64,000 bases of DNA from Candidatus Shapirobacteria bacterium. GTDB lineage: Bacteria > Patescibacteriota > Microgenomatia > UBA12405. Below are positions 5,038 through 32,842 of the stretch, piece after piece. Numbering within the stretch: the first letter of the stretch is position 1; every line of letters starts with the position of its first letter. The stretch spans positions 7,450 through 71,449 of the forward strand of contig JAGORQ010000002.1 in NCBI GenBank assembly GCA_018062705.1, given 5' to 3'. The position numbers and the translations under genes were made by a program. The notes beneath the pieces are model-generated. The model ran no database searches and had not been told where the DNA came from. It was given only the letters and a program-made list of their open reading frames with translations.

Positions 5038-5577
5038 ATGTCTAGAATCGGTCGAAATCCTATCACTATCCCCGCCAACGTCACTGTTACCGTCACTGGT
5101 CGCACAGTCACCGTTGTTGGACCACTTGGTACTCTCAACTTGGCCTTACCTCTCAAAATTAATGTCGAGGTCCGCGACGGTATTGTTTATGTTACTCGCG
5201 TCTCTGAAGATAAAAAAGTCAAAGCATGTCACGGATCAACTCGAGCTCATATCCAAAACATGGTCACTGGTGTCGTCACTCCCTGGAAAAAAGAAATGGA
5301 AATCAGAGGCACTGGTTACAAGTTCACCCTTCAAGGCAACAAATTAGTTGTCAATGCTGGCTACATCCATACAGTTGATGTCGTCGCCCCCACCGGTATA
5401 ACTTTTACTGTCCCAGATGACTCCAAACTAACCATTACTGGTACCGACAAAACAGTTGTTGGTCAAGTCGGTAGCAATATTCGTAAAATCCGCAAACCTG
5501 AACCTTACAAAGGCAAAGGTATCCGTTATCTCAATGAATTTATCAAATTAAAAGCCGGTAAAACCGCCAAAGCCTAA
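5038..5577 (+). CDS. rplF: 50S ribosomal protein L6
   Basis: MSRIGRNPITIP...; two L6 repeats. Confidence 0.92.
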   Translation: MSRIGRNPITIPANVTVTVTGRTVTVVGPLGTLNLALPLKINVEVRDGIVYVTRVSEDKKVKACHGSTRAHIQNMVTGVVTPWKKEMEIRGTGYKFTLQGNKLVVNAGYIHTVDVVAPTGITFTVPDDSKLTITGTDKTVVGQVGSNIRKIRKPEPYKGKGIRYLNEFIKLKAGKTAKA

Positions 5578-5692
5578 GGCACAATTTAACCATTAAACCA
5601 TTTATCATTTTTCATTGAAAACAAAAGAATAAAATATAATTGAATCAATGGTTAAATGGTTCAATGATAAATGAAAAATTTTTTATAAAATT
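5578..5692. repeat. R1 element, copy 6 (full)
   Basis: Near-identical to copy 2. Confidence 0.85.
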
Positions 5693-6034
5693 ATGATCCA
5701 CGATCGAACCCTCAAACGACAAAAAAGAGTCCGCGCCAAAATCTCCGGAAATCTCGGTATTCCTCGCCTTAGTGTTTTCCGTAGCAACACTCATTTATGG
5801 GCCCAAGTTATCGACGATAAACACGGCAAAACTCTTGCCTCGGCTACTACCAAAAACCTCAAAGACATCAAAGGCACCAAAACTGAAAAAGCCATTGCTT
5901 TAGGTGAAGTTATTGCCAAATCTGCTCTCAAAGCCAACGTTATCAAAGTTCGTTTCGACAGAGGGTCCTACAAGTATCATGGACGCGTCAAGGCCTTAGC
6001 CGACTCTGCCCGCGAACATGGCCTTAAATTTTAA
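5693..6034 (+). CDS. rplR: 50S ribosomal protein L18
   Basis: [18 protein letters not shown]...[17 protein letters not shown]. Confidence 0.92.
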
Positions 6035-6130
6035 TATATTTAACCATTTAACCATTTATCATTTAACCAATAATTAAAAACATTTAATCAATAATTAAAT
6101 GGTTCAATGTTACAATGGTTCAATAATTTT
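6035..6130. repeat. R1 element, copy 7 (divergent)
   Basis: tttaaccatttaaccatttatcatttaacc...attaaatggttcaatgttacaatggttcaataatttt. Confidence 0.7.
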
Positions 6131-6607
6131 ATGTCCGATTTTGAAAATAAACAAATTAGAAAAATGGATCGTCCTGAGTCCGAATTTACCGACAAAGTCG
6201 TCGAAATCAAACGTGTTTCCAAAAAAACCAAAGGTGGAAATCAAATCGGTTTTACTGCCTTAGTCGTCACCGGTGATAAAAAATCCCGTGTCGGTGTCGG
6301 TCATGCCAAGGCCAAAAGTGTGGCCGATGCCATTCAAAAAGCCATACGCCGTGGTCGTCGCGATATGCTGACTGTCAAAACCAACAATGGCACAATTATT
6401 GGCGAAATCAAATTCAAATTCAAAGGTTCGATTGTTCTACTTCGTCCTGGTAAACCAGGTTCTGGTCTAATTGCTGGCGGTCCTGTCCGTTCTGTAGTTG
6501 AGTTGGCTGGAATCAAAGACATTGCCTCCAAAATCATCGGTTCCAAAACCAAATCAATTAACGTTTGGGCAACCCTAAAAGCCCTCACCCTTTTACAAAA
6601 AAATTAA
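6131..6607 (+). CDS. rpsE: 30S ribosomal protein S5
   Basis: VVEIKRVSKKTKGGNQIGFTALVVTGD...; the track ORF starts at 6107 inside repeat, so ATG 6131 is preferred; L30 does not follow. Confidence 0.88.
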   Translation: MSDFENKQIRKMDRPESEFTDKVVEIKRVSKKTKGGNQIGFTALVVTGDKKSRVGVGHAKAKSVADAIQKAIRRGRRDMLTVKTNNGTIIGEIKFKFKGSIVLLRPGKPGSGLIAGGPVRSVVELAGIKDIASKIIGSKTKSINVWATLKALTLLQKN

Positions 6608-6704
6608 CCATTTATCATTTTTCATTTATCAAAAAATAAAAAAAATAACCAATCATCAAATCAATGAAAAATGGTTAAATGATAAATGATAAATTCTTTC
6701 TAAT
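6608..6704. repeat. R1 element, copy 8 (divergent)
   Basis: aaccatttatcatttttcatttatc...caatgaaaaatggttaaatgataaatgataaatt. Confidence 0.7.
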
Positions 6705-7124
6705 ATGGATATTCTAAACAATCTAACTCAAACAGTTGATAAACCCGCTCGTCGTCTCGGTCGGGGATATGGCTCCAAAAAAGGTGGTCACACTTCATCT
6801 CGTGGCTCCAAGGGAGACAAGGTCAGAGGCAAAACCAAAATCACTTTCGATGGTACCAAAATCAAAAAAGGCTGGATTAAGCGCACCCCCTTCCTTCGAG
6901 GCAAACACCGAACTCTCAAAATGAGTATCAATGCAATTTTTCAACTCGAACAAATCGACAAAATGTTCAAATCAGGTGACACCGTAGATGCCAAAACCCT
7001 CAATTGTGCCACTGCCAAAATTTTGTCAAAAGGTGATATTACCAAAGCTCTCAACTTCCGTGGAGTCAAAATGTCTGAATCAGCCAAGGCCAAAATTATC
7101 GCAGCAGGTGGTAAGATAGACTAA
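6705..7124 (+). CDS. rplO: 50S ribosomal protein L15
   Basis: [23 protein letters not shown]...; directly follows S5. Confidence 0.9.
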
Positions 7125-10762: not shown

Positions 10763-11176
10763 ATGACAGAAGAAATCAAAAAAACCACCAAATCAAAAGT
10801 TCCTTCAAAGAAGAAGGTAGTTAAGAGCATTGCCGAGGCCACTCTTACCGTCAAATCTAGTTTCAACAATACCATTGTTACTGTTTCCGACATGAAAGGA
10901 AACACTCTCACTTGGTCTTCAGCTGGTCATGCTGGATTCAAGGGTGCCCGCAAGTCCACCCCGTATGCCGCTACCACCGCCATCGAGAAAGCACTCGAGG
11001 CTGCTAGACCCTATGGAATCAAAAAATTGGCTGTATATCTCAAAGGACCCGGTGTTGGTCGCGATGCCGCGCTTCGCTTCCTCCGTGCCAAAAGAGAATA
11101 CGATGTTGACATTATTGCTGATGTCACTCCAATTCCCCACAACGGTCCTCGTCCTTCAAAGGCCCGTAGAGTTTAA
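10763..11176 (+). CDS. rpsK: 30S ribosomal protein S11
   Basis: ...AGHAGFKGARKSTPYAATTAIEKALEAARPYGIK... Confidence 0.92.
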   Translation: MTEEIKKTTKSKVPSKKKVVKSIAEATLTVKSSFNNTIVTVSDMKGNTLTWSSAGHAGFKGARKSTPYAATTAIEKALEAARPYGIKKLAVYLKGPGVGRDAALRFLRAKREYDVDIIADVTPIPHNGPRPSKARRV

Positions 11177-11284
11177 AAATTAAACCATTTAACCATTTTT
11201 CATTTATCATTCAATAAATATTCAAATAACTAAAACCCCCAATGGTTCAATGGTTAAATGAAAAATGATAAATTTTTCTAATTT
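11177..11284. repeat. R1 element, copy 9
   Basis: aaaccatttaaccatttttcatttatcatt...caatggttcaatggttaaatgaaaaatgataaattttt between rpsK and rpsD. Confidence 0.75.
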
Positions 11285-11917
11285 ATGTCAAGAATCACAT
11301 TAGATAGTAAATGCCGACTCTGTCGCGCCGAGGGTTGCAAACTCTATCTCAAAGGTGCTCGCTGTTTGTCAGCCAAGTGTCCAATTGAGAAAAAAGGTGC
11401 AGTTCTCCCCGGTATGCATGGTGCCAAGCGTGTCAAAAAGCCAACCGATTACGGTATTCAGCTTCGTGCCAAGCAAAAAGCCAAACGTATTTACGGCGTC
11501 CAAGAAACTCAGTTCCGCAATTACTTCCTCAAAGCCAAGGCTCTCAAGGGTCTTTTGAGCGACAACTTTTTAGTTCTCCTCGAGCGACGCTTAGACAATG
11601 TGGTTTATCTTGCCGGTTTGGCCGAGTCCCGTTCCCAATCCAAACAACTCATTTCCCATGGTCATGTTTTGGTCAATGGTAAGCGCCTATCAATCGCCTC
11701 ACATTCTCTCAAAGTTAATGATGTCGTCACTTTAGACAAAAAAACCATTGCTCGCACTGCCGATTCAATGAAATTGGTCGAAAAAGACTTCAAAGTCAGC
11801 AGCTGGCTTGAACTAGATAAATCAAAATATACTGTTTCGGTCAAGTCACTGCCTTCAACAGACGACTTCAACCGCAACATTGATATCAATTTAATCATTG
11901 AATATTATTCCCGATAA
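11285..11917 (+). CDS. rpsD: 30S ribosomal protein S4 (zinc-ribbon N-terminus)
   Basis: CRLCRAEGCKLYLKGARCLSAKCP...; S4 domain. Confidence 0.9.
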   Translation: MSRITLDSKCRLCRAEGCKLYLKGARCLSAKCPIEKKGAVLPGMHGAKRVKKPTDYGIQLRAKQKAKRIYGVQETQFRNYFLKAKALKGLLSDNFLVLLERRLDNVVYLAGLAESRSQSKQLISHGHVLVNGKRLSIASHSLKVNDVVTLDKKTIARTADSMKLVEKDFKVSSWLELDKSKYTVSVKSLPSTDDFNRNIDINLIIEYYSR

Positions 11918-14269: not shown

Positions 14270-14998
14270 ATGTCCATTCTCCATGCCATCATTCTCTCTC
14301 TTATCCAGGGTATCTCCGAATTCCTCCCTATTTCCTCCACCGGCCATCTGCATTTATTCCAGTATTTTCTAGGCATCACCCCCTCCCTAACTTTCGACAT
14401 TTTTCTCAACACCGCCTCTTTGCTTTCAGTTTTGTTTTTCTTTCGCAACCAAACCAAATACTTCTTCAATAATCTTCTATATATAATCGTTGGCACCATT
14501 CCGGCAGTTTTGGTCGGTTTACTCTTCAAAAGTCAGCTCGAAACCATTTTTGCCAACAATTCGCTTCTTTGGTCCCAGTTCCTATTTTCTGGGATCGCCT
14601 TATTTCTCACTCGCTATATCAAGCCCAAGGATGAAAAAATGACCTTCGGTAAGGCACTAATTATTGGTATCTTCCAGGCCCTGGCCATCATTCCCGCCAT
14701 TTCCCGTTCCGGTTCAACCATCTTTGCTGGACTGCTTCTAGGTCTCAGCCCGCTTGCCGCCTTCAACTTTTCCTTTAGCTTGTTTATTCCTGCTTCCATC
14801 GGTGCACTAGTTCTCGATATCAAAGATTTGGTCAACATGGGTGCCCTTACCCCAGTATTTATCTTTTCCTTCATCCTTACCTTCTTGGTCGGTGTAGTTG
14901 CCCTCTCCTATCTCAAAAAAGTCCTCCTCGGTCGCCATTTCTGGCTATTTGGTATCTACATGCTCCTCCTCTCCCTCTTCTGCTATATAGTCCTATAA
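14270..14998 (+). CDS. uppP: undecaprenyl-diphosphatase
   Basis: GISEFLPISSTGHL hallmark, 8 TM. Confidence 0.9.
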   Translation: MSILHAIILSLIQGISEFLPISSTGHLHLFQYFLGITPSLTFDIFLNTASLLSVLFFFRNQTKYFFNNLLYIIVGTIPAVLVGLLFKSQLETIFANNSLLWSQFLFSGIALFLTRYIKPKDEKMTFGKALIIGIFQALAIIPAISRSGSTIFAGLLLGLSPLAAFNFSFSLFIPASIGALVLDIKDLVNMGALTPVFIFSFILTFLVGVVALSYLKKVLLGRHFWLFGIYMLLLSLFCYIVL

Positions 14999-15000
14999 CA

Positions 15001-15029
15001 TTGACAAAGTGACCATATTTTGCTAGAAT
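15001..15029 (+). promoter_or_regulatory. sigma70-like promoter TTGACA-17-TAGAAT
   Basis: ttgaca 15001-15006, 17-nt spacer, tagaat 15024-15029. Confidence 0.6.
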
Positions 15030-15034
15030 TGTTA

Positions 15035-15180
15035 CGAATAACCAAATCACACAATAGCTGTGTAATCACGGTTATTCATGTTCTTCTGATATTCTTCCGA
15101 CTTAGTCGGAATAAATCAGAAATGCGAATCTGGCTTCGCCAGGTTGCACTTTAAAAAATCGCGGATAGGATCTTCCTTTG
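15035..15180 (+). ncRNA. conserved structured 5' leader, copy A (unclassified candidate cis-regulatory RNA)
   Basis: Hairpins gaataacc...ggttattc, acaca-atagc-tgtgt, ccgac-ttag-tcgg, ctgg-cttcg-ccag, then aaaaaatcgcggatagg; paralogous to 16230-16345 with compensatory stem changes. Confidence 0.5.
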
Positions 15181-15286
15181 AAACTTTGGGCTTACGAATC
15201 TGAAATCGGAGTAATCCAATCAGAACTTCAACCGTTAGGTTGATTTCAGTCAGTAAGTCCAAAATATATTTCAAGAGGAGTTAGAC

Positions 15287-16054
15287 ATGTTAAACAAAGT
15301 GCTCGGCAAGATCGAACGTGGTTATGCCAAGTTTGTGGCGTGGATGATGGTTCTACTCGGAATTCTGGTTCAGTTCCAGCAATTAAATGCGTTAGGTCTG
15401 TTCAAGATTGCCGACTGGTTCGAAAGTGGAATCATCTCGCAAAGTTGGGGAGTTGCCATTGCCAATAAGCTTTACATTCTCGAACAGTTGTTATACCAAC
15501 TGCAAGGGATGATCTCAAGCTTGATGGCTATTTTCGGCTGGTACTCCGCCCGCAGTTTCGCTGGTTGGTTCCTGGTTATCACTGGGTCCGTTCTGCTTAT
15601 CAGCAAAATGAAGGCGACGGACGAAAGTCCCAAACAGGTAAATTACATCTTGGTGACACTCAAGTTTTTCAACTTGTTTGTAGCAGGCGTGCTCGTATTT
15701 GTCTGTTACTTCACTGTCACCATGTTGTATTTTCCTGATTTGGCGTTCTCGGTAGAGAGTATGTGGAACAGTTGGTTCGGAATATTCAACACTCTAGACG
15801 CCATGGTGATCTACTGCCTGGTTGCTCTCGGCTCCGCGAACCTCCTGATTATTGGAGAGTTCTATAAGCAACCAAAAGCCGGTTGGGTAATTTGGTGTTG
15901 CAATATTTTGATGGGCATAATCTGGATTGTTATGGAGACGCCATCGAATGCTGTTTCACTCGACTCTGCCATGATCTTGCTTGTCTTTACCACCGCCTTC
16001 CACACAATTTCTTCACTGACCATCATGTTCACGGGAGCACCGGAAACCAAATAA
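15287..16054 (+). CDS. hypothetical polytopic membrane protein (about 6-7 TM)
   Basis: 255 aa, hydrophobic; SD agaggag 8 nt upstream; preceded by structured leader A. Confidence 0.6.
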   Translation: MLNKVLGKIERGYAKFVAWMMVLLGILVQFQQLNALGLFKIADWFESGIISQSWGVAIANKLYILEQLLYQLQGMISSLMAIFGWYSARSFAGWFLVITGSVLLISKMKATDESPKQVNYILVTLKFFNLFVAGVLVFVCYFTVTMLYFPDLAFSVESMWNSWFGIFNTLDAMVIYCLVALGSANLLIIGEFYKQPKAGWVIWCCNILMGIIWIVMETPSNAVSLDSAMILLVFTTAFHTISSLTIMFTGAPETK

Positions 16055-16066
16055 ATCTATCCGCGC

Positions 16067-16135
16067 CCTCGGCACAAACTGACCTTGGTCTCCCTTCGGG
16101 GAGACCAGCGTTGGTTGTGCTGAGGAAATTTTTAT
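16067..16135 (+). terminator. long imperfect palindrome plus T-run (terminator), paralogous to 17169-17240
   Basis: cctcggcacaa...ggtctcc cttcg gggagacc...ttgtgctgagg aaatttttata. Confidence 0.6.
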
Positions 16136-16197
16136 ACAATTCACACTTATTTATTTGACATTTTTAATCTAGATTTTTGACATTTAGTCTCATAATA

Positions 16198-16226
16198 TTG
16201 AAATATTAGCAATTTATTGCTAAAAT
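16198..16226 (+). promoter_or_regulatory. sigma70-like promoter TTGAAA-17-TAAAAT
   Basis: ttgaaa 16198-16203, 17-nt spacer, taaaat 16221-16226; aligns with promoter A relative to the leader. Confidence 0.45.
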
Positions 16227-16229
16227 AGC

Positions 16230-16345
16230 CGAAATAATCAAACCATACAAACGCTGTATGATGTTGGTTATTTAAGCACTTCCCGATGCTCACTTCGTTC
16301 GTTCGGGATGGTTATCCAGCTTCGCTGGGTAGCACATTAAAAAAT
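16230..16345 (+). ncRNA. conserved structured 5' leader, copy B
   Basis: cataca-aacgc-tgtatg, cccga...tcggg, ccag-cttcg-ctgg, cacattaaaaaatcgcggataggg. Confidence 0.5.
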
Positions 16346-16440
16346 CGCGGATAGGGATTATTTTTGGACTGAAGAATTAGTTTAAACAACAACAATGTTG
16401 TTAACTATCATTCGGTCCAAAAAAGGAGAATTGTAAGAAA

Positions 16441-17160
16441 ATGAATAAGAAATTGTTTTGCGTTTTGATGGCAGGGATCTTATTCCTTGCTGCTTGTGGC
16501 ACACCTGCTACAAGTATCACCCCGACTGTTGCACCAGTTGTGGCAACAGAAACCCCCACCTCAGCCCCAACCCCTACTTTGGAGCCCACCAATACTCCCA
16601 CCCCGGAGCCCCTTTACTTCGAAATGGATCTATATCTAGCTCAAAAGCAGGACAATCAGTGGGGGATTGGTCACACAACAGAAGAGAGGTGTAAAATTAC
16701 ATTGGATGAGGATGGCAGTAATAGTGCTATCAGGAAATTTCTACTGAACTGTCAATATGATACGGAAAATTCTATTAAGTTTCCGTTTTTGGTCCAGGTA
16801 GTTCATAACGCACAGCAATCCATCGAAACAGTCATGGAAACTAGGGTGGAGCAAATAAGTGTGGTCGCCTACGACTGCACCACACTGAGAGACGGTGGGT
16901 TTCAGTCGATTTCGACTCACTTCAACGGCGCCACAACTATTGGCTTCAGTTTGATCGAAGGAAGGGGTGTATTGCATTACGACGATGCGGGCAATTCGGA
17001 GGCGAGTGAAATGGTGAACGCGACAGTTCCGTCTCTTGGTAACAATCAAGCGTATCTGTTCATCTCCTCTGATGCAAGTAACGTGTTTATCCAAATTTGG
17101 GACATCATGTGTAACGAGCAGTTGTTCCAAAAGGAGACAGTCATTATCTCCTATCCCTAG
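16441..17160 (+). CDS. lipoprotein with PT-rich linker, hypothetical
   Basis: MNKKLFCVLMAGILFLAACG lipobox; TPTPEP linker; SD aaaggag. Confidence 0.65.
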   Translation: MNKKLFCVLMAGILFLAACGTPATSITPTVAPVVATETPTSAPTPTLEPTNTPTPEPLYFEMDLYLAQKQDNQWGIGHTTEERCKITLDEDGSNSAIRKFLLNCQYDTENSIKFPFLVQVVHNAQQSIETVMETRVEQISVVAYDCTTLRDGGFQSISTHFNGATTIGFSLIEGRGVLHYDDAGNSEASEMVNATVPSLGNNQAYLFISSDASNVFIQIWDIMCNEQLFQKETVIISYP

Positions 17161-17168
17161 TCCGCACG

Positions 17169-17240
17169 CCTCGGCACAACCCAAAAATTGGGTCTCTCGA
17201 AAGAGAGACCCGATCAATGGATGTGCTGAGGAAATTTTTA
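17169..17240 (+). terminator. long imperfect palindrome plus T-run (terminator), paralog of 16067-16135
   Basis: cctcggcacaac...gggtctctc gaaa gagagaccc...atgtgctgagg aaatttttata. Confidence 0.6.
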
Positions 17241-17293
17241 TAACAACTTACATTATTTTAGAATTTAGGTTTTAGAGTTTAGAGTTTTTTGCC

Positions 17294-17452
17294 TCAAGCC
17301 TCTCCCAGTCTCTTGTTCAACTTATCCCACACAATATCCGTCAGATTATCCAGCGCGCTAATTATCACTTTTCGCTGATGTTTCGGTTTTTTCTTCTCCG
17401 CTTCTTCCAAATCAACTTTCCAGATTACTTCAATTGGTTCCTGAATTTGCAT
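17294..17452 (-). CDS. small hypothetical protein (52 aa), possible operon partner of 17470..18510
   Basis: MQIQEPIEVIWKVDLEEAEKKKPKHQRKVIISALDNLTDIVWDKLNKRLGEA; found by hand, below the track cutoff. Confidence 0.25.
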   Translation of the reverse strand: MQIQEPIEVIWKVDLEEAEKKKPKHQRKVIISALDNLTDIVWDKLNKRLGEA

Positions 17453-20096: not shown

Positions 20097-20156
20097 CCCC
20101 CTCTTTCGTCAAAGTCGAAGATATCGCTTCAGCGATGAGGGGGTAGGGGGAGATTT
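20097..20156. repeat. R3 hairpin (long variant with inner hairpin) after gltX
   Basis: ccccctctttcgtcaaagtcgaagatatcgcttcagcgatgagggggtagggggagattta. Confidence 0.7.
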
Positions 20157-20162: not shown

Positions 20163-20918
20163 TTGCTACACTATTTTGTGCTTTTAATTTTATTTTTACT
20201 CTCACTCTTTTCTCGCCCAGTCTTTGCCCTCGACCCGATTGCCAAAATCACCAACTTTTCTTCCGACACCTCACCTGAATGGGTCGAGATTACCAATCTT
20301 TCCAGTCAAACAATTGATTTATCCAATTGGAAAATCCGCGACAGTAATAATCAAACAGGCGACGATATCATTATCACCGGTTGTTTGTCGCCAAGTAACA
20401 CTCAAGTTTTTTCCAAAAATTCCAGCTGGCTAAACAATACTGGCGACACCATCTCTCTTTACAACTCCACCGACACTCTAGTTGACCAACTAACTTATTC
20501 TGTTGGTAAAACTGGCGATGCACCAGCATCAACCAATACTTGTGTTCCCACCTCAACTCCAACTCTCACTCCATCTCCAGTTCCCGCCACCAACACACCT
20601 CATCCCACCTCTACTCCTACCGCTACTCCCACCAATACCCCAGTCCCAACCTCCACGCCAACTCGCACGCCGACACCGACTCAAACACCTACTCCCACTC
20701 CCACCAGTGAACCCACACCCATCGACTCGCCAATGCCAACGGCGACGGCGGTCACCGATTTGCCAATTGATATTTCCGGCCCAATCGATTCGGCAACTCC
20801 GACCAAAGCACCAGCCAAATCTTCAAAATTCAACTCCCAAATTCTTCCAACTATTTTTATTATCATTGGCGGTTTGCTTCTAGTTGTCCCTCTAATCATT
20901 TCCAAAATCAAAAAGTGA
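20163..20918 (+). CDS. secreted lamin-tail-domain (LTD) protein with PT linker and C-terminal TM anchor
   Basis: EWVEITNLSSQTIDLSNWKIRD...ISLYN LTD pattern; TPTPTQTPTPTPT linker; TTG start at 20163, or GTG at 20178. Confidence 0.65.
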   Translation: MLHYFVLLILFLLSLFSRPVFALDPIAKITNFSSDTSPEWVEITNLSSQTIDLSNWKIRDSNNQTGDDIIITGCLSPSNTQVFSKNSSWLNNTGDTISLYNSTDTLVDQLTYSVGKTGDAPASTNTCVPTSTPTLTPSPVPATNTPHPTSTPTATPTNTPVPTSTPTRTPTPTQTPTPTPTSEPTPIDSPMPTATAVTDLPIDISGPIDSATPTKAPAKSSKFNSQILPTIFIIIGGLLLVVPLIISKIKK

Positions 20919-21277
20919 CCAAAATTTACCGCTATATTCCAGCTTTTCTTTGGATGTGCTTTATTTTTTACCTGTCTTCCCGCCAAACTACTGGCATTCA
21001 CAGTGTTGTCGTCAATCGGTTTTATATTCTCAAAACTTTTCACCTTGTCGAGTATGCTATTTTAGCTATATTGTTGTTTTACGCCACCCTGTCACATTTT
21101 TCTACCATCCTAATTGCCTACCTCTTCTCCATCACTGATGAGTATCATCAGCTCTTTACTTCCGGCCGTTCCGGACGGCTCTACGATACCCTATATGATT
21201 TAATCGGAGTAGCTATTGGATTAATAATAATTTTAACAATAAAATCAATTTTTAGCTTGAAAAATACTCAAAAGTAA
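20915..21277 (+). CDS. VanZ-like family membrane protein
   Basis: DEYHQLFTSGRSGRLYDTLYDLIGVAIG; GTG start overlapping the upstream stop. Confidence 0.65.
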   Translation: MTKIYRYIPAFLWMCFIFYLSSRQTTGIHSVVVNRFYILKTFHLVEYAILAILLFYATLSHFSTILIAYLFSITDEYHQLFTSGRSGRLYDTLYDLIGVAIGLIIILTIKSIFSLKNTQK

Positions 21278-21347
21278 CTACACATCTATCTAGTAGCAGT
21301 TTGAATTATCTTACTGTAAAATACGTCCATATAACTTTTTTCAATAG

Positions 21348-22382
21348 ATGTCTTCACAGAAGCTTAAAATTTCTATTCTCATACCTTGCTACAACGAGGA
21401 AAAATCCATCCGGTCTTCAATCAATGCTTGCTTAGCTCAAACCCGTCCCTTTGATCAAATTTTAGTTGTCAATGATTGTTCCACCGACAACACCCTAAAA
21501 ATACTAAAAACATTTGGCAAAAAAATTCAAGTTATTGATCTCAAAGTACACGCTGGCAACAAAAGTTACGCCCAAGAACAAGGTTTGCCCTATATTACGG
21601 GTGATATTTTTGTCGCCACTGATGGCGATACCCTTCTCGACCCCAAGTTTAATGAAATTATCGAGTCAGACTTCAAGGACAAAAAAGTTGCGGCAGTCGC
21701 CGGATATGTCCGCAGCCTCAAATACAACTGGTTGACCATGTGCCGGGCTTTTGATTACGTTATTGGTCAAAATATTCACAAGTTAGCCCAAAAATACCTT
21801 GGTTATATTTTTGTTATTCCCGGTGCCGCCAGCGCTTTTCGCACCAATGTTTTCAAAAAGTATATTGGTTTTGATCACGACACTATCACCGAAGATCTGG
21901 ATTTTACCTACAAACTCCACAAAAACAATCTTTATATTCATTACAACAATAAAGCTATTGTCTACACCCAAGACCCCGATACTCTTCGTTCATATATAGG
22001 ACAAATGCGACGCTGGTATGGTGGCGGTTGGCAAAATCTGGTAAAACACATCAATAATGATTTAGTTGAGGATCCTCGTCGGGTACTTGAGTTGTCACTA
22101 ATTTATGTTGAAGGTGTAGTTTTTTCATTTTTAATTTTTCTTGTCCCACTTCTCAATATTCTTTGGGCCGTCAAATTCTTTCTACTCTTGACTATTATAG
22201 TAGCCATAGAAGCCATTCTAGCTTCAATTATTGAAAAAAGACTCGATTTCTTACTTATACCTTTTATCTATCCTTTTATGATGTACGTTAATAGTTATGT
22301 CTCTTTAGAGCAGTTTATCAAGGAGGGGATTTTAAAATCTAAAAACCTTGTTTGGTATCACCCAGCTCGCCGTGAAATATGA
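21348..22382 (+). CDS. family 2 glycosyltransferase, processive-synthase type (QxxRW), with C-terminal TM
   Basis: ILIPCYNEE, DCSTDNT, ATDGDT, QMRRWYGG (QxxRW). Confidence 0.8.
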   Translation: MSSQKLKISILIPCYNEEKSIRSSINACLAQTRPFDQILVVNDCSTDNTLKILKTFGKKIQVIDLKVHAGNKSYAQEQGLPYITGDIFVATDGDTLLDPKFNEIIESDFKDKKVAAVAGYVRSLKYNWLTMCRAFDYVIGQNIHKLAQKYLGYIFVIPGAASAFRTNVFKKYIGFDHDTITEDLDFTYKLHKNNLYIHYNNKAIVYTQDPDTLRSYIGQMRRWYGGGWQNLVKHINNDLVEDPRRVLELSLIYVEGVVFSFLIFLVPLLNILWAVKFFLLLTIIVAIEAILASIIEKRLDFLLIPFIYPFMMYVNSYVSLEQFIKEGILKSKNLVWYHPARREI

Positions 22383-22485
22383 TGTTTGTACCCGGTTTAT
22401 CACTCTTGGTACATTTGTTAATAATTTTTGTTGGTTTTGTCGGCACCACAATCAAAAATATTTGGCAAAAAATAAATTAATCTAT

Positions 22486-22929
22486 ATGAAAAAAATACTT
22501 TCACTCACTGTTTTTATTGCCATTTTCTCACTGGTATCTTATACCGCTGGTTTCACTCTGGACAAATGTCTCACCGAACGCTCAAATATAACACTCGTGG
22601 CCGAAGCACTTAAATTAGGTACCGTGCCAGTTATTGCCCAGTTACCCTCAGACTCATCAGTCTTAGGGGAATCAATTGTGGCACCATCGCCCACACCAGA
22701 CCCTGTCAAGATTTCTCAAATACTACTCTCTTGTCAACCAAAAATTTACTCCGGATATTCGGTTGTTAACTATTATTTAGACAACAAATTAGACTATTCG
22801 TTTGATTCTCGTACCCAAGACGCTTTAACTTATGGTATAAAAAACTATACAGGTACCGCTGATCAGAATTCAAAATTATTGCAGTATTTAACCCAAAAAC
22901 AGGTCAAAATATGTCTCGATTCAAATTAA
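22486..22929 (+). CDS. secreted hypothetical protein
   Basis: Signal peptide [21 protein letters not shown]; the track ORF starts at 22348, overlapping the previous gene. Confidence 0.55.
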
Positions 22930-25900
22930 ACTTAATTCGATCTTTACTTTTCCTTTTTGTTTTTGTAGGTTTTCGCCTGGCTTTCCCCGACTTTTCTAGT
23001 ACCCAAACAGACAATTTAATCAGTAACTCATCAGTTGAAACACCCTCAGTTGGTACCACCCTCCCTCTCGACTGGTATGTAGACAATTGGGGTACCAACA
23101 AAGCAGTTTTTACCTATCCTGTGGCCGGTTATGTTGGTAGTGGCGTCAAGGTTCAGCTTACCTCCCGAACCAGCGGCGATGCCAAATGGTATTTCAAAGA
23201 AATACCAGTAACCGCCTCAAAAACTTACACCTTCACTGATTATTATCAATCAAATGTCGTCAGCTCAGTTGTCGTTGCCACTGTCACCACTACCGGTTCC
23301 TATGTCTACACCACACTGGCAAATCCAGCAATCGCTGCCAATTGGACTAAATTTACCGTCAACTTTACTACACCTGCCAATGCCTCAAAGGTTACTGTTT
23401 ACCACCTCATCAACAAAGTTGGTTGGTTATCTACCGATGAATTTTCTTTAGTCCCGCTGGTCACCCAGACTCCTACTCCCACTTTGACACCCACCATTAC
23501 TCCAACCCACCCACCAACCCCCACTCCTAGCCTCGTTCCCACAGCAACCATCACTCAAATCCCGACTCCGACACCTACAGTAACTGTTGGCAATGTCGTT
23601 CCCAACCCCGGTTTTGAAACCGTTTCTGGCTCCTTGCCAGCCAGTTGGTCGAAGCTAAAATGGGGCACCAACACTACCACTTTTTCCTACCTAACTACCG
23701 GTCACACCGGCTCCCGTTCTGCCAAGGTTCAAACCACCAAATACACCAATGGTGATGCCAAATGGCAATTTACCTCTGTCCCAGTGACTCCTGGTGATTC
23801 TTACCAATTTTCTGACTGGTACAAATCAAACATTGTCACCCATATGGTCGTTAAATTTGTCTTAAACGACAATACTGAGTTTTACCTCGGACTCCACGAT
23901 GCACCAGCATCAACAAACTGGACTCAATACTCTGATAGTTTTGAAGTACCTGCCAACGCCAAAAATATGACTGTATTGCATTTAATTTCCGCGGTGGGCA
24001 CATTAACTATCGACGATTTTTCCTTAGTCAAATACACTCCTACTCCTCTAAATCGCACCTTAGTTACCCTAACTTTTGACGACGGCTGGGAAGACAATGT
24101 CACTACTGTTTTACCCATTTTAAAGTCCAACAATATCCCAGTTACTTACTATTTTGCCACCACTTTTTTATCCAATTCACCTCATACTGGAGCTATCAAT
24201 GTCTCCGGTGATCAGGCAGTTTTATCTGTGTTTAACAATGGTAACGAAATTGGTTCTCATTCAGTCACACACCCTGATTTAACAACTTTGAATGCTACCC
24301 AATTAAATTCCGAGATTACTGATTCCAAAAATTATCTCGAGAACCTCATTGGTACCGGCAGGGTTACCAGCTTTGCCACTCCATACGGTGCCTACAACAC
24401 TACTTCGCTTAATGCCCTCAAAACTCTCTACCGCAGTCATCGTCCCACCGATGAAGGTTTCAATACTGGTGATAGTTTGGATCCTTATCGCCTCAAAGTC
24501 CAAAATATGCTCTCTGATACCACCTTAAGCGAATTCCAGAGTTGGGTTGATCAAGCCATCAAAGACAAGTCTTGGTTGGTACTTGTTTACCACCGTGTTG
24601 CCACCACCAATCTTGATGCTTATGACACTAATCTAGTCGATTTTCAAAATCAACTAAATTATCTTTTATCCAAGAATGTCACTTTCAAAACCGTCAGTGG
24701 TGCTTTGGATGAAATTGCTGGAATTCTTCCAACCTCTACTCCCACCAACACTCCCACCAATACACCCACTAATATTCCTACCAACACCCCAACACTAATT
24801 CCCACAAATACGCCTACATCGACACCCACCAATACTCCAACTTTAATTCCAACTAACACTCCAACAGTAATCCCTACAAATACTCCAACAATGACACCAA
24901 CCAACACTCCCACCAATACCCCAACAATCACCTTAACTCCGACAGTCACTCTTGCTCCCACCATCACTCCCACCGTTGGTCCTACTACCATTCCTATCTA
25001 TCCCACCCCCACATATTTTCCTGCTCCAACTCCCGGTCCAAATTTAGTCCCCAATAACTCACTCGAAACCGCCAACTCTGCCAATGCAAATTTACCAGAT
25101 TCTTGGAATACAGGTAATTGGGGCACAAACACTCCAGTCTTTACCTATCCCGTCCCTGGTGTTGATGGAGCTTCCGCTACCAAAGTCGAACTAACTTCAT
25201 TTACTGATGGTGACGCTAAATGGTATTTTAATGACGTTTCTGTTAATCCTGGTACAATCTACAATTTTTCCAATCAATATCAGTCAAATGTGGCTACTCG
25301 AGTAGTTGTCCGTTTCCATCATGATGCCGGCAACGATAATTATCAGGATATCGCTACCCCACCCTCTTCTGCTAGTTGGACTAGTACTTCCGCCAATATC
25401 ACCATTCCTGCTGATGTCCACACAATTACAATCTTTCACCTCATCGAACAGGTTGGTTATTTAGTTGTCGATAATTACTCACTTCGTGCATCAGCGACAG
25501 CTAATACTCCCTTTTCCCAAGGTATGGTTACCTTATCTTTCGATGATGGTTGGAACTCGGTCTTTCAAAACGCCATTCCCATACTCAATTCCAAAAATTT
25601 CAAAAGTACCCAATTTTTAACCACCACCTTTTTAGATAATTTGGCTGATGGTTACATGTCACTCACCAACGCTCTTACCATGCAGTCCCAGGGACATGAA
25701 ATCGGTGCCCATACCAAAACACACCCAGATCTCAACACGCTCACCGAGTCACAAATTATCAATGAAGTTACCGGCTCTCGCCAAGACCTTTTGTCACTTG
25801 GTTTCAATCCAGTCAAGTCGATTGCGCCTCCTTTTGGTAATGCCAACAGTACTGTCATGCAAATTATCAAGCAATCAGGCTTTACCACATCTAGGACTGC

Positions 25901-26180
25901 TAATCCCGAGGATGCTGGCTATAATTACAAAAACACCGACCCCTTTCAACTAAAAAATCAATCAATGGAAATATCCACCACACTTGATCAAGCTAAATCG
26001 ATGATCGACTCCGCTCGAAGCAATAACAGTTGGCTAATCATGGTATTCCATCAAGTTGACACTAGTGGTGGACAATATTCAGTTTCACCCGCTTTACTCC
26101 AAGGTATCGCCGATTATCTCCAGTCTACCTCTACCACTGTGGTCACTCTCTCTCAAGGTCTCAATGCCATGTTGAATTAA
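22911..26180 (+). CDS. secreted 1089-aa protein with three CBM-like beta-sandwich modules, two polysaccharide deacetylase (NodB/CE4) domains and PT linkers
   Basis: TFDDGWEDN...[10 protein letters not shown] and SFDDGWNSV...[10 protein letters not shown] NodB motifs; three repeats of ...GDAKW(Y/Q)F... Confidence 0.75.
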
Positions 26181-26189
26181 CTCACTCTC

Positions 26190-27158
26190 ATGACCCGAGG
26201 TATAAATACTTTAAAAACTTTTCTTGCGCTATCAATAATAATGACAGTAGCTGGCTGTAACACAACTCCTGTCCCAGTAATTGCTGAAACCGCCACTCCT
26301 GTCAGTTCCCCACCCGACACCCCAACACCTCGACCAACATCAACGCTACTGCCCACAGAAACAGCTTTTCCTTCGCAGGTTCCTGAAGCTACAAACAGTA
26401 ATAATAAGTTAAATATTGGACTATTTGCCGGAGACGCCGCTGAAACCAAAAAATTAATTGACGAAATTGGGGTTGCACCAGATATGTTAGCTACCTTTAT
26501 AGGTCTAGATGGAAGTGGTGACATTCATCAGGAAATGGTTGACCTCGCCAAGAAAAATAAAACTGGCCTAGTAATATATCTAGAGACAAATGAGACCAAT
26601 TCTCAAATGCTTGATACCGAAACCAATGAGTGGTTAACAAAAATTGCCGAAAAATTAGAAGAATCAGAAGTGCCTACAATTGTCGTCTTTTTACCTGAGC
26701 CAAATTTGAGAGGTGAAGACATTCCTTGGGCAGACGGTACGGCTGATAATAGTCCGGAAAAATTTAAAAAAGTCTGGGCTATGGCGCATGAAATTTTCAA
26801 AGACAAAAAAAATATTAAATTAGCTCTTGCCTTAAACGAAATCCAGTCAGGTGACAACTCTACTGCCTATATCCCGCCGGCAGACCAAGTAGATATCTAT
26901 GGTGTCGACGCTTTTCGTTGGCCGGACGATCCTCGAACTACTGAAGACATGTTTACCTCAACTTTAGATTTGTTTGCCAAGACCGGCAAACCAATGTGCG
27001 TATTTTCTACTGCAACCAGCACCGACAAAGCCAAGTGGTACCAGGAAGCCCTCGATTATGCTAAAAAACAAAAATTACACTGTGTTATGTTTTTTAATGT
27101 TAAGAAAGAAAACGATTGGACTGCTCCAAAAGAAATACTTAGAGATGCTCTTAACTAG
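26190..27158 (+). CDS. lipoprotein, GH26-like glycoside hydrolase (putative)
   Basis: Lipobox TVAGCN; VVFLPEPN...W and QVDIYGVDAF align with motifs of the two neighbouring GH26-like proteins. Confidence 0.45.
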   Translation: MTRGINTLKTFLALSIIMTVAGCNTTPVPVIAETATPVSSPPDTPTPRPTSTLLPTETAFPSQVPEATNSNNKLNIGLFAGDAAETKKLIDEIGVAPDMLATFIGLDGSGDIHQEMVDLAKKNKTGLVIYLETNETNSQMLDTETNEWLTKIAEKLEESEVPTIVVFLPEPNLRGEDIPWADGTADNSPEKFKKVWAMAHEIFKDKKNIKLALALNEIQSGDNSTAYIPPADQVDIYGVDAFRWPDDPRTTEDMFTSTLDLFAKTGKPMCVFSTATSTDKAKWYQEALDYAKKQKLHCVMFFNVKKENDWTAPKEILRDALN

Positions 27159-27192
27159 ATAGCATATCCTCTGGCAACTAAATCATGTTGAA

Positions 27193-28152: not shown

Positions 28153-28159
28153 CCATAAT

Positions 28160-32840: not shown

Positions 32841-32842
32841 AT

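What the first reader, a model, noticed from the sequence alone, without database searches (positions are those of the whole stretch)
15001..17240. Two adjacent genes each sit in a paralogous transcription 'scaffold': promoter, structured leader with compensatory stem changes, unrelated gene, paralogous palindromic terminator
The two units are A (15001-16135, membrane protein) and B (16198-17240, PT-linker lipoprotein).
- Each starts with a sigma70-like promoter (TTGACA-17-TAGAAT; TTGAAA-17-TAAAAT) at the same offset from a conserved leader.
- The leaders align over about 130 nt and fold into the same hairpins with compensatory substitutions. Copy A has cacaca-atagc-tgtgt, copy B has cataca-aacgc-tgtatg. 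Copy A has ctgg-cttcg-ccag, copy B has ccag-cttcg-ctgg (the stem strands are swapped). Copy A has ccgac-ttag-tcgg, copy B has cccga...tcggg. Outer stems are gaataacc/ggttattc versus aaataatc...ggttattt.
- Both leaders end in the near-identical string ca(c/t)tttaaaaaatcgcggatagg.
- Covariation between two paralogs is the classical signature of a functional RNA structure (riboswitch, protein-binding leader or sRNA). I cannot match it to a known riboswitch class from memory.
- The proteins are unrelated. One is a polytopic membrane protein about 6-7 TM in size, as for an ECF S-component or small transporter. The other is a lipoprotein with a binding-protein-like feel. Together they suggest ligand-controlled uptake.
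- Both genes have strong SD sequences and higher GC than the neighbouring ribosomal genes.
Basis: seen in the sequence. Interest (0 to 1): 0.85.

Follow-up and report, generated by a model that had tools for sequence, protein, structure and literature searches.

The report
Reused mRNA scaffold around orphan genes
Two neighbouring, unrelated orphan envelope-protein genes in an uncultured Shapirobacteria genome share homologous promoter, folded leader and terminator sequences whose RNA hairpins have been preserved by selection, but with only two copies known anywhere there is no sign that it is a metabolite sensor.

Summary
Units A (15001-16135) and B (16198-17241) share homologous non-coding flanks: an extended -10 promoter, leader hairpins P1 and P3, an invariant tail (TTAAAAAATCGCGGATAGG) and a roughly 60-nt 3' hairpin. 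The ORFs are unrelated in every frame. In 20 leader base pairs there are 4 double compensatory changes, 1 G-U change and no disruptions (simulated neutral P < 5e-6), so RNA-level selection on the + strand is well supported.

New points:
- The non-homologous cargo lies exactly between the two arms of a predicted 5'-tail/3'-UTR helix (9 bp in A, 12 bp in B; pairing probability about 1 in full-length folds).
- Both ORFs are orphans with no detectable relatives.
- A+B is a 2.3-kb insertion, atypical in composition, between uppP and a small ORF that are adjacent in five of the six relatives examined.

No Rfam match and no further copy was found in the window, in relatives' loci, or in exact-block scans of the genome, metagenome, viral, phage and plasmid collections.

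Best reading (confidence about 0.42): a self-contained mRNA stability/processing scaffold, like B. subtilis hbs, reused as a portable cassette for unrelated genes, like phage PeSL elements or morons. The riboswitch and uptake interpretation is not supported. Interest is moderate, because only two copies in one MAG are known.

The parts
14270..14998 (+). uppP (undecaprenyl-diphosphatase), left anchor of the insertion
   Evidence: Pfam BacA, E 7e-56. In relatives its stop codon lies next to or overlaps a small minus-strand ORF.
15001..15029 (+). Promoter A: TTGACA-17-TAGAAT with a TG-extended -10
   Evidence: 11 of 12 consensus matches. It aligns with promoter B.
15036..15077 (+). Leader A hairpin P1: outer stem 15036-15043/15070-15077, inner stem 15049-15053/15059-15063. 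It starts within about 2 nt of the predicted transcription start.
   Evidence: -11.6 kcal/mol. Two double compensations and one C-G to U-G change relative to B.
15084..15121 (+). Leader A hairpin P2: variable, not significantly similar to B's P2
   Evidence: -14.9 kcal/mol. Segment similarity z 1.7.
15123..15148 (+). Leader A hairpin P3, core stem 15128-15134/15138-15144
   Evidence: -12.6 kcal/mol. Two adjacent double compensations relative to B (CUGG/CCAG against CCAG/CUGG).
15149..15169 (+). Invariant tail A: A-rich single strand followed by the 5' arm of the long-range helix (15160-15168, CGCGGAUAG)
   Evidence: 19-mer identical in both units. Pairing probability 0.9-1.0 with 16057-16065 in the full-length fold. 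Duplex -16.3 kcal/mol.
15173..15281 (+). Cargo A 5' part: long hairpin before the Shine-Dalgarno (SD) sequence. Its base pairs UCUUCCUUUGAAA with the SD region. SD AAGAGGAG at 15273-15280.
   Evidence: -36.7 kcal/mol. Not significantly similar to B apart from the hairpin base TTTGGRC/GTCCAAAA.
15287..16054 (+). ORF A: 255-aa orphan membrane protein, about 7 predicted helices. GenBank KBC75_00960 is annotated from a later start (181 aa).
   Evidence: Only a self hit among 5.8 billion proteins. No family. AF2 shows 7 helices at pLDDT 54. Accession.
16057..16065 (+). 3' arm of the long-range helix A (CUAUCCGCG), 2 nt after the stop codon
16067..16135 (+). 3' hairpin/terminator A: about 26 bp, inner C(UUCG)G tetraloop, then AAAUUUUUAU
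   Evidence: -42.5 kcal/mol. The 20-mer TGTGCTGAGGAAATTTTTAT is shared with B.
16136..16197 (+). Spacer after terminator A, weakly homologous to the sequence after terminator B
   Evidence: z 2.8, 6 of 500 shuffles.
16198..16226 (+). Promoter B: TTGAAA-17-TAAAAT with a TG-extended -10
   Evidence: 10 of 12 consensus matches.
16232..16273 (+). Leader B hairpin P1
   Evidence: -10.8 kcal/mol.
16281..16308 (+). Leader B hairpin P2 (variable)
16310..16335 (+). Leader B hairpin P3, core stem 16314-16320/16324-16330
   Evidence: -14.2 kcal/mol.
16336..16358 (+). Invariant tail B, including the 5' arm of the long-range helix (16347-16358)
   Evidence: pairing probability 0.8-1.0 with 17153-17165; -19.7 kcal/mol.
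16361..16424 (+). Cargo B hairpin before the SD sequence. SD AGGAG at 16424-16428.
   Evidence: -26.0 kcal/mol.
16441..17160 (+). ORF B: 239-aa orphan lipoprotein (signal peptide, LAAC lipobox, Pro/Thr linker, Cys-containing domain). KBC75_00965 / MBP9817313.1.
   Evidence: Only a self hit. phmmer against 1.84 billion representatives gave self plus spurious eukaryotic coiled-coil repeat proteins. No family. AF2 pLDDT 43.
17153..17165 (+). 3' arm of the long-range helix B (AUCCCUAGUCCGC). It overlaps the TAG stop codon.
17169..17241 (+). 3' hairpin/terminator B: 10+3+12 bp, GAAA tetraloop, then AAAUUUUUAU
   Evidence: -40.8 kcal/mol.
17242..17293 (+). Spacer after terminator B, the right end of the inserted block
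17294..17452 (-). Conserved 52-aa ORF, right anchor of the insertion
   Evidence: 52% identical to the ORF that lies 25 nt after uppP in L006. Homologues occupy the same place in L008, L009, L010, L014 and L015.

Best explanation
A and B are two copies of a self-contained expression cassette. Its non-coding frame is conserved and its coding cargo is interchangeable.

The frame consists of:
- a strong sigma-70-type promoter;
- a 5' UTR that starts with a hairpin at the transcript's 5' end (P1), followed by P2 and P3;
- an invariant A-rich single strand whose last 9-12 nt pair with the first nucleotides of the 3' UTR;
- a very stable 3' hairpin of about 26 bp with a U-tract.

The cargo sits inside the loop closed by the 5'/3' helix. 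It comprises its own long hairpin, the Shine-Dalgarno sequence and an orphan envelope-protein ORF.

Shown:
- The flanks are homologous and the ORFs are not.
- The hairpins are under selection on the + strand.
- The block is an insertion.
- The ORFs are orphans with atypical composition.

Inferred:
- The frame works on the RNA. It shields both mRNA ends from exonucleases, and the long-range helix next to the A-rich stretch governs endonucleolytic cleavage or processing, and so mRNA lifetime and translation. This is how the 14-bp 5'/3'-UTR interaction of B. subtilis hbs mRNA limits RNase Y cleavage.
- On the DNA, the conserved frame makes the unit portable. New orphan genes arrive or are duplicated ready for expression, and the identical 19-21-nt blocks beside the cargo could support homologous exchange, as in PeSL cassettes of T4-type phages and in phage morons.
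For: - Segmental homology with breakpoints at the arms of the helix; ORFs unrelated in any frame.
- 4 double compensations, 1 G-U change and 0 disruptions in 20 pairs, with neutral probability < 5e-6. The terminator inner stem and loop also co-vary. Conserved G-U pairs point to the + strand RNA.
- P1 starts at the predicted transcription start.
- Full-length folds place the tail/3'-UTR helix at probability about 1 in both units, with dG -16.3 and -19.7 kcal/mol. B's helix is kept by partly different pairs (GGGAU/AUCCC gained, the two outermost tail-side pairs C15160-G16065 and G15161-C16064 lost).
- The topology matches hbs: complementarity just after the 5' hairpins and just before the terminator, -19 kcal/mol (PMC5737220).
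- RNase Y genes are present in related Shapirobacteria loci.
- The block is an insertion between uppP and a small ORF that are adjacent in five of six relatives; in L013 a different gene sits between them.
- GC3 skew is about 0 against -0.2 to -0.9 for the other + strand genes except 28160-30109 (+0.05), with the lowest codon-usage scores of all ORFs scored.
- Both ORFs are orphans.
- PeSLs are composite promoter/stem-loop repeats that sit mostly upstream of ORFans and mediate shuffling (PMC2839356; PMC4122927).
Against: - Only two copies are known, both in one MAG. No third copy was found in the window or in relatives' loci, or in the public collections scanned. Neither portability nor a family can therefore be demonstrated.
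- The long-range helix is short. A 9-nt exact complement between the upstream and downstream flanks occurs in about 13% of mismatched control pairs. A's duplex energy ranks only in the top 11% of controls; B's ranks in the top 0.9%.
- The two helices share ancestry, so they are not independent evidence.
- The copies differ by 25-40% outside the invariant blocks, so recent recombination between them is unlikely.
- The U-tract is separated from the stem by AAA, so termination is not certain.
- RNase Y has not been seen in this genome's window.
- There are no expression data.
Confidence: 0.42

Rival explanations
1. The leader is a cis-regulatory RNA, either a new riboswitch or the binding site of a protein or small RNA, that puts the two envelope genes under one signal. 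The conserved tail is the sensor or operator and the hairpin before the SD sequence is the expression platform.
For: - The 5' UTRs are long and strongly structured (z about -6.5), with covarying stems.
- There is an invariant 24-nt unpaired stretch.
- In A the sequence right after the tail pairs with the SD sequence.
- Two unrelated genes sharing one leader is what a regulon looks like.
Against: - No Rfam family matches.
- Loops and internal loops vary while the stems are kept, which is the opposite of the aptamer pattern.
- No terminator/antiterminator pair is present, and SD sequestration is weak in B.
- Conservation of the promoter, 3' UTR and spacer is left unexplained.
- The cargo genes are orphans with no metabolic link.
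- No homologues exist in other genomes on which to test covariation.
Confidence: 0.2
2. A historical accident with no joint function. One transcription unit was duplicated in tandem and the ORF of one copy was later replaced. The flanks persist only as an ordinary promoter, stabilising hairpins and a terminator, and the 5'/3' complementarity is fortuitous.
For: - The arrangement is tandem, with the homologous spacer following both terminators.
- A 9-nt complementarity is not rare by chance.
- Only two copies exist.
- This genome carries several other families of repeated intergenic sequence.
Against: - The replacement would have to be exact: homology stops at the two helix arms, at or within 2 nt of the stop codon on the 3' side.
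- Blocks of 19-24 and 20-21 nt stay invariant beside sequence that has diverged by 25-47%. This indicates constraint beyond generic signals.
- The helix in B is maintained through different pairs.
- Both ORFs, not just one, are atypical in composition.
Confidence: 0.2
3. The inverted repeat CGCGGATAG...CTATCCGCG acts on the DNA as a site for a site-specific recombinase that inserts, exchanges or inverts the cargo, in the manner of an integron, a shufflon or an inverton.
For: - The inverted repeat bounds exactly the non-homologous segment in both units.
- A large palindrome follows each ORF, as in integron cassettes.
- A large serine recombinase is encoded 25 kb away.
Against: - The palindromes carry no attC core sites (RYYYAAC / GTTRRRY), and there are no target-site duplications.
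- No tyrosine integrase was found among the roughly 34 window ORFs scanned.
- The serine recombinase sits in its own island with a tRNA gene and a restriction-modification system.
- Each unit has its own promoter, unlike integron cassettes.
- Inversion would put no SD-led ORF behind the promoter.
- In B the repeat has a bulge and a mismatch, which an RNA helix tolerates better than a recombinase core site does.
- The motif occurs nowhere else in the window.
Confidence: 0.08
4. An assembly or chance artefact.
For: The sequence comes from a metagenome-assembled genome, and repeats can be misassembled.
Against: - The copies differ at 25% of positions and the differences are compensatory, which misassembly cannot produce.
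- The flanking genes are syntenic with relatives.
Confidence: 0.02

Closest known systems
B. subtilis hbs mRNA: structured 5' UTR plus a 14-bp 5'/3'-UTR long-range interaction that modulates RNase Y cleavage (Braun, Durand & Condon 2017, PMC5737220)
   Same: The topology is the same: hairpins at the 5' end, then a single-stranded segment that pairs with a sequence just upstream of the terminator hairpin. The helix energies are similar (-16 and -20 here, -19 kcal/mol in hbs). Both have a strong SD sequence. RNase Y is encoded by related Shapirobacteria.
   Different: There is no sequence homology. Here the scaffold is shared by two unrelated genes and includes the promoter. The helix is shorter in A. 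No cleavage sites are mapped and nothing has been tested experimentally.
PeSL (promoter-early stem-loop) regulatory cassettes of T4-type phages (Arbiol et al. 2010, PMC2839356; Comeau et al. 2014, PMC4122927)
   Same: Both are repeated composite promoter/terminator modules between unrelated ORFan genes in a variable region. The modules supply expression signals and stretches of homology.
   Different: This one lies in a CPR bacterial chromosome, not in a phage. The module is several times longer, with a leader of about 135 nt, a long-range helix and a 60-nt hairpin. There are only two to three partial copies. Recombination or mini-circles have not been shown.
Phage morons (own knowledge: Juhala et al. 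2000; Hendrix et al. 2000)
   Same: Each is an autonomous promoter-gene-terminator unit inserted between genes that are adjacent in relatives. Composition is atypical, and membrane protein and lipoprotein cargo is common.
   Different: There is no prophage context (no PHROG hits; the neighbours are housekeeping and envelope genes). Morons are not defined by paralogous flanks.
S. aureus icaR 5'/3'-UTR pairing (Ruiz de los Mozos et al. 2013, PMC3868564); hok mRNA fbi/tac fold-back (own knowledge)
   Same: The 3' UTR of an mRNA pairs with its own 5' UTR to control its fate.
   Different: In icaR the 3' UTR masks the SD sequence and creates an RNase III site. Here the helix lies about 110 nt (A) or 65 nt (B) upstream of the SD sequence and is too short for a typical RNase III substrate.
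Riboswitches and other cis-regulatory leaders (Rfam)
   Same: Both are long structured 5' UTRs with covarying stems upstream of membrane or secreted protein genes.
   Different: No family matches. Loops vary. Conservation extends to the promoter and 3' UTR. No phylogenetic breadth is known.
Integron gene cassettes / attC
   Same: Both involve unrelated orphan ORFs in tandem, each followed by a large imperfect palindrome.
   Different: There are no attC core sites, no integrase or attI, each unit has its own promoter, and the conserved part also lies 5' of the ORF.

Membership tests
Riboswitch (any described class) | Match to a curated covariance model | tested here: not met
   Rfam 15 at gathering score finds only a tRNA elsewhere in the window. 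At E <= 10 over 14900-17400 there are only chance-level hits to miRNA, intron and CRISPR models.
Riboswitch (any described class) | Aptamer whose junction and loop nucleotides are conserved while stems covary, across many organisms | tested here: not met
   Stems covary, but P1 loops and internal loops differ at 47% of positions. Only two copies exist, both in one genome.
Riboswitch (any described class) | Expression platform with mutually exclusive structures | tested here: inconclusive
   A has a helix that sequesters the SD sequence. In B the SD sequence only abuts a hairpin. There is no leader terminator.
Riboswitch (any described class) | Specific ligand binding | not testable with these tools
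   Needs in-line probing or ITC.
hbs-type 5'/3'-UTR long-range interaction | Complementary segments just downstream of the 5' hairpins and just upstream of the terminator | tested here: met
   15160-15168 pairs with 16057-16065, and 16347-16358 with 17153-17165. Pairing probability about 1; dG -16.3 and -19.7 kcal/mol.
hbs-type 5'/3'-UTR long-range interaction | Pairing is more than chance and is maintained by compensation | tested here: inconclusive
   Control ranks are 11% for A and 0.9% for B, and chance 9-mers occur in 13% of controls. The arms coincide with the homology breakpoints. B keeps the helix through partly different pairs.
hbs-type 5'/3'-UTR long-range interaction | Modulates RNase Y cleavage and mRNA half-life | not testable with these tools
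   An RNase Y gene is seen in relatives' loci only.
PeSL regulatory cassette | Composite of a sigma-70-like promoter and a stable stem-loop in the intergenic spacer | tested here: met
   Terminator A, the spacer and promoter B occupy 16067-16226.
PeSL regulatory cassette | Many repeated copies flanking ORFans in variable regions | tested here: inconclusive
   The copies flank two ORFans in a variable gap, but there is only one complete and two partial modules.
PeSL regulatory cassette | Located in hyperplastic regions of T4-type phage genomes | tested here: not met
   No phage DNA match. The only PHROG hit is a marginal one to ORF B's signal-peptide region, E 0.0015. The neighbours are chromosomal genes.
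PeSL regulatory cassette | Recombination between copies (indels, mini-circles) | not testable with these tools
   Needs population reads or PCR.
Phage moron | Autonomous promoter-gene-terminator unit inserted between genes adjacent in relatives | tested here: met
   for the unit; for synteny.
Phage moron | Resides in a phage or prophage genome | tested here: not met
Integron cassette / attC | R'' (RYYYAAC) and R' (GTTRRRY) core sites at the ends of the palindrome | tested here: not met
   A regex search on both strands of both 3' UTRs found none.
Integron cassette / attC | Adjacent intI integrase, attI and Pc promoter, with promoterless cassettes | tested here: not met
   No tyrosine recombinase among about 34 ORFs scanned. 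Each unit has its own promoter.
MITE / IS element | Terminal inverted repeats at the outer ends, target-site duplication, transposase | tested here: not met
   The inverted repeat lies at the inner, cargo-side edges. No direct repeat of 6 bp or more at any boundary. No transposase.
Intrinsic terminator | G+C-rich stem-loop immediately followed by a U-tract | tested here: inconclusive
   The stems are very stable (-42.5 and -40.8 kcal/mol), but U5 follows only after an AAA spacer. The consensus scan flagged only the inner hairpin of A.

The most novel reading that the evidence does not exclude
CPR bacteria may carry a portable 'closed-loop mRNA chassis'. This would be a promoter plus 5' and 3' UTR frame whose two ends pair around the cargo. 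It would be reused for unrelated, lineage-specific envelope genes and would let new or foreign ORFs be inserted, duplicated or swapped ready for expression. That would make it a chromosomal counterpart of phage PeSL cassettes with an added RNA-level control layer. More copies with other cargoes would then be expected in the rest of this genome and in related populations.
Probability: 0.2. Interest if true: 0.7.

Novelty: new variant of a known kind. Interest (0 to 1): 0.45.

Why it matters
If the frame really is a reusable cassette, it would show how a reduced-genome, host-dependent bacterium acquires and expresses fast-turnover surface proteins. Orphan genes would arrive already wrapped in working transcription, stability and translation signals.

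It would also add a second natural example, in a distant phylum, of mRNA 5'/3'-end pairing as a design principle, and it would supply a compact candidate expression scaffold for CPR genetics.

If it is only a local duplication, it remains a clean two-sequence demonstration of selection on UTR hairpins, with little wider consequence.

Tried and rejected
- **Rfam:** searched at gathering score and at permissive E-values. Nothing matched.
- **Exact-block scans:**
  - Leader 19-mer in 185,579 species genomes gave 3 hits with no upstream similarity, so they are chance.
  - Leader 24-mer in JGI metagenomes gave none.
  - Terminator 20-mer in JGI metagenomes gave 2 hits inside an ATPase gene, with no partner arm.
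  - Four viral-contig patterns gave none or chance hits.
  - These scans require exact blocks, and the nearest relative is only 66% identical in UppP. Diverged homologues could have been missed.
- **blastn:** the whole 2.3 kb against phages and plasmids gave no match.
- **Covariance model** built from the two leaders, run on the window and 10 loci from relatives, found only the two seed sequences.
- **Source contig:** could not be fetched beyond the window, or other contigs of the MAG. The look-ups for ORF A, ORF B and UppP are not on record.
- **Protein function:**
  - No Pfam, PHROG, NCBIfam or PADLOC family.
  - The phmmer hits to giant eukaryotic coiled-coil proteins are repeat-inflated and not homology.
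  - Single-sequence AlphaFold models are too poor for fold search (pLDDT 43 and 54), so none was run.
- **ORF A against ORF B:** no similarity at DNA or protein level in any frame. ORF A is also unrelated to the different membrane gene that occupies the same gap in L013.
- **Conserved upstream ORF in the leaders:** rejected by inspection of the sequence. The reading frames and stop codons differ between the copies.
- **Integron, MITE or IS reading:** rejected.
- **AT-rich repeats in the ribosomal-protein operon:** I asked whether they are promoter cassettes of the same kind. The promoter scan was not enriched over shuffles.

Full report
**Source and setting**

The window comes from a 73-kb contig of a Candidatus Shapirobacteria (CPR/Patescibacteria) MAG. 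ORF A and ORF B are KBC75_00960 and KBC75_00965. Upstream lie rplQ-rplM-rpsI-like genes and uppP (Pfam BacA). Downstream lie a conserved 52-aa minus-strand ORF, a 346-aa orphan and gltX.

Yes.

- Both units start with near-consensus promoters that carry a TG-extended -10 (15001-15029 and 16198-16226). These are the two best + strand matches in the region.
- The leaders align and so do the 3' ends.
- A segment-by-segment test against shuffles shows mosaic homology:

| Segment | z against shuffles |
|---|---|
| Promoter | 3.3 |
| P1 | 7.1 |
| P2 region | 1.7 (not significant) |
| P3 + tail | 11.2 |
| Tail to ATG | 1.4 (not significant) |
| 3' UTR | 11.7 |
| Spacer after terminator | 2.8 |

- The ORFs show no similarity at DNA level or in any pair of reading frames.
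- The 19-mer TTAAAAAATCGCGGATAGG and the 20-mer TGTGCTGAGGAAATTTTTAT each occur exactly twice in the window.
- blastn with short words and a covariance model find no third copy in the window.

**2. Are the hairpins selected?**

- Each leader folds much better than shuffles (z -6.7 and -6.4).
- On the two-sequence alignment, the three shared helices (P1 outer, P1 inner, P3) comprise 20 pairs. All are paired in both copies.
- There are four pairs changed on both sides, one C-G to U-G change and no disruption.
- Sliding the 3' partners by 1-3 columns drops pairing to 30-38% and removes all compensation.
- The built-in shuffle test saturates with two sequences (25 of 500). I therefore simulated neutral divergence at 15-35% per site. 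'No disrupted pair and at least 4 compensatory doubles' never occurred in 200,000 trials.
- Unpaired aligned columns differ at 39% overall and at 47% in the P1 region. The stems are therefore kept against a background of heavy divergence.
- Conserved G-U pairs (leader columns 97/111, terminator 21/75) would be A-C mismatches on the opposite strand. The selected structure is on the + strand, which fits RNA.
- The 3' hairpins are about 26 bp with dG -42.5 and -40.8 kcal/mol. The outer stem is identical. The inner hairpin has changed stem and loop together: C(UUCG)G in A and a GAAA tetraloop in B.

**3.

(a) The non-homologous cargo is bounded by an inverted repeat.
- The last nucleotides of the invariant tail (CGCGGAUAG, 15160-15168) are the reverse complement of CUAUCCGCG (16057-16065), which starts 2 nt after the stop codon.
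- In B, 16347-16358 pairs with 17153-17165, which overlaps the stop codon.
- Folding the full-length predicted transcripts (1.0-1.1 kb) gives these long-range pairs probabilities of 0.8-1.0 in both units.
- The isolated duplexes are -16.3 and -19.7 kcal/mol.
- B keeps the helix through partly different pairs. It gains GGGAU/AUCCC and loses the two outermost tail-side pairs, C15160-G16065 and G15161-C16064 in A's numbering.
- Caution is needed. An exact 9-nt complement between the upstream and downstream flanks occurs in about 13% of mismatched gene pairs in this AT-rich window. Duplex energies rank A in the top 11% and B in the top 0.9% of controls.
- What raises the helix above chance is its position. 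Both arms sit at the inner edges of the two most conserved blocks, which is exactly where homology stops.

(b) The block is an insertion.
- In five of six related Shapirobacteria (UppP 57-66% identical), uppP is followed at once by a convergent 52-54-aa ORF. The gap is 25 nt in L006, and the two genes overlap or abut in L008, L009, L010, L014 and L015.
- Here that ORF is at 17294-17452, 2.3 kb from uppP. A plus B fill the gap.
- In L013 the same gap holds a different, unrelated membrane-protein gene. The site is therefore variable.

(c) Both ORFs are orphans.
- Each gives only a self hit among 5.8 billion clustered proteins.
- A phmmer search of ORF B's mature domain against 1.84 billion representatives returns itself plus two giant eukaryotic coiled-coil proteins. 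Their scores are inflated by 20-40 repeats of a 31-35% match.
- There are no Pfam, NCBIfam, PHROG or PADLOC families.
- They still look like real genes. Both have strong SD sequences. ORF A has about seven predicted helices. ORF B has a signal peptide, a lipobox and a Pro/Thr linker like other envelope proteins in the window.

(d) Their composition is atypical.
- With one exception (28160-30109, +0.05), the other + strand genes have GC3 skew between -0.2 and -0.9. A and B have about 0.
- A and B also have the two lowest codon-usage scores of all ORFs scored and the two highest GC3 values apart from uppP.

**4. What it most likely is**

The conserved part is a complete expression frame: promoter, 5' UTR, 3' UTR and terminator. 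It is not only a leader.

- P1 begins within about 2 nt of the predicted start, the classical position of a 5' stabiliser hairpin (own knowledge: ompA, aprE and ermC leaders).
- The one invariant single-stranded stretch is A-rich and abuts the long-range helix.
- The closest precedent is B. subtilis hbs mRNA. A 14-nt segment just downstream of the 5' hairpins pairs (-19 kcal/mol) with a segment just upstream of the terminator and restrains RNase Y cleavage in the leader (PMC5737220).
- Related Shapirobacteria encode RNase Y.
- I therefore favour an mRNA stability/processing scaffold. This step is inferred, not shown.
- That one frame surrounds two unrelated orphan genes in an inserted, compositionally foreign block is best matched by phage regulatory cassettes. 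PeSLs are repeated promoter/stem-loop modules, mostly upstream of ORFans, that mediate modular shuffling (PMC2839356; PMC4122927). Morons are autonomous promoter-gene-terminator inserts (own knowledge).
- The 19-nt and 20-21-nt identical blocks next to the cargo are of a size that could support homologous exchange. With only two diverged copies, this remains conjecture.

**5. Rivals**

- **Riboswitch or operator leader (0.2).** Structured, covarying, and A's SD sequence is sequestered. But there is no Rfam match, the loops vary, there is no switch architecture, the conserved promoter and 3' UTR are unexplained, and there is no phylogenetic breadth.
- **Plain duplication with ORF replacement and a fortuitous helix (0.2).** Parsimonious for n = 2. 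It needs a replacement that is exact at both helix arms, and it leaves the invariant blocks unexplained.
- **DNA recombination sites (0.08).**
  - There are no attC core sites and no target-site duplications.
  - No tyrosine integrase was found among about 34 ORFs scanned.
  - The only recombinase is a large serine recombinase in a separate island with a tRNA gene and an Eco47II restriction-modification system at 42-46 kb.
  - The motif occurs nowhere else in the window.
- **Artefact (0.02).** Excluded by the compensatory differences.

**6. Search for relatives**

- The leader 19-mer gave three chance hits in 185,579 species genomes.
- The leader 24-mer gave none in JGI metagenomes.
- The terminator 20-mer gave two chance hits inside a coding region.
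- Viral contigs gave nothing real. Phage and plasmid blastn gave nothing.
- The covariance model found nothing in relatives' loci.
- The organism has no close relative in the databases (best UppP identity 66%), and the collection scans need exact blocks. Absence of evidence is therefore weak. Even so, the claim of a family cannot be made.

**7. Verdict**

- The interpretation 'functional RNA structure' is supported. 'Riboswitch controlling ligand uptake' is not.
- This is a new variant of known kinds: an hbs-like UTR frame and PeSL- or moron-like cassettes.
- Interest is moderate (0.45). It is limited by n = 2 in a single MAG. It is raised by the clean compensatory evidence, by the way the helix encloses the cargo, and by the fact that a decisive follow-up is simple: search the rest of the MAG and its reads.

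Noticed in passing
window 473-579, 1294-1410, 2044-2165, 3057-3094, 4919-5040, 5576-5695, 6030-6138, 6593-6706, 11171-11290: AT-rich modules of about 110 nt are repeated between ribosomal-protein genes. They are built from AACCATT/AATGGTT and ATCATTT/AAATGAT words in mirrored arrays, fold into hairpins of 20 bp or more, and end just before the next ATG. Related Shapirobacteria have the same genes tightly packed without such spacers. No Rfam match, and no promoter enrichment over shuffles.
   Followed up: partly
window 890, 9324, 37459, 37618, 54686, 55160, 61347, 62905 (about 47 nt each): Eight copies of GTAAAGTAG + GGGCTCGA-CTTG-CTCGAGCCC. This is a REP-like G+C-rich hairpin family at gene ends, and the leading TAA/TAG can serve as the stop codon.
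   Followed up: no
window 20118-20156, 38085-38123, 38670-38708, 53315-53353; also 32776, 33968, 55802, 56786: Two further intergenic repeat families: CCCCCTC..GAGGGGGTAGGGGGAGATTT hairpins, and TTGYCTTATTCTTAAATCTTAAATCTTAYTTCTTAAATCT. Repeated non-coding modules are common in this genome.
   Followed up: no
window 42168-45679: A small mobile island lies beside a tRNA gene (42168-42238). It has a large serine recombinase (42179-43672, minus), an Eco47II-type restriction endonuclease (43672-44415, minus) and a C5 DNA methylase (44420-45679, minus). GC is 0.29-0.38 (0.29-0.31 for the R-M genes) against 0.40-0.46 elsewhere.
   Followed up: partly
window 17294-17452 (minus); L006 2795-2953, L008 5165-5326, L009 6710-6871, L014 10726-10887, L015 10726-10890: A 52-54-aa lysine-rich ORF of unknown function is conserved convergent to uppP, often overlapping its 3' end, across Shapirobacteria.
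   Followed up: partly
L013 10747-11508: In one relative the same uppP/small-ORF gap holds a different 253-aa membrane protein (Pfam UPF0259), unrelated to ORF A. This suggests the gap is a recurrent insertion site.
   Followed up: partly
window-wide; exceptions at 26190-31279 and 45842-50895: There is strong strand asymmetry at third codon positions: C exceeds G on the + strand, with GC3 skew about -0.5 for + genes and about +0.1 to +0.4 for most minus-strand genes. Besides ORF A and B, the genes at 26-31 kb and 46-51 kb deviate, which may mark other recent rearrangements or acquisitions.
   Followed up: no
window 15287-16054: GenBank annotates ORF A from an internal start (181 aa, MBP9817312.1). 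The 255-aa reading has AAGAGGAG 6 nt upstream of its ATG and is also on record as a cluster member.
   Followed up: partly
window 20163-33700: There is a dense cluster of envelope and polysaccharide genes: glycosyltransferases, a polysaccharide deacetylase with a CBM, three GH26-like proteins, a collagen-repeat protein, a CAP-domain protein and a lamin-tail-domain protein. Several carry Pro/Thr linkers like ORF B's.
   Followed up: no
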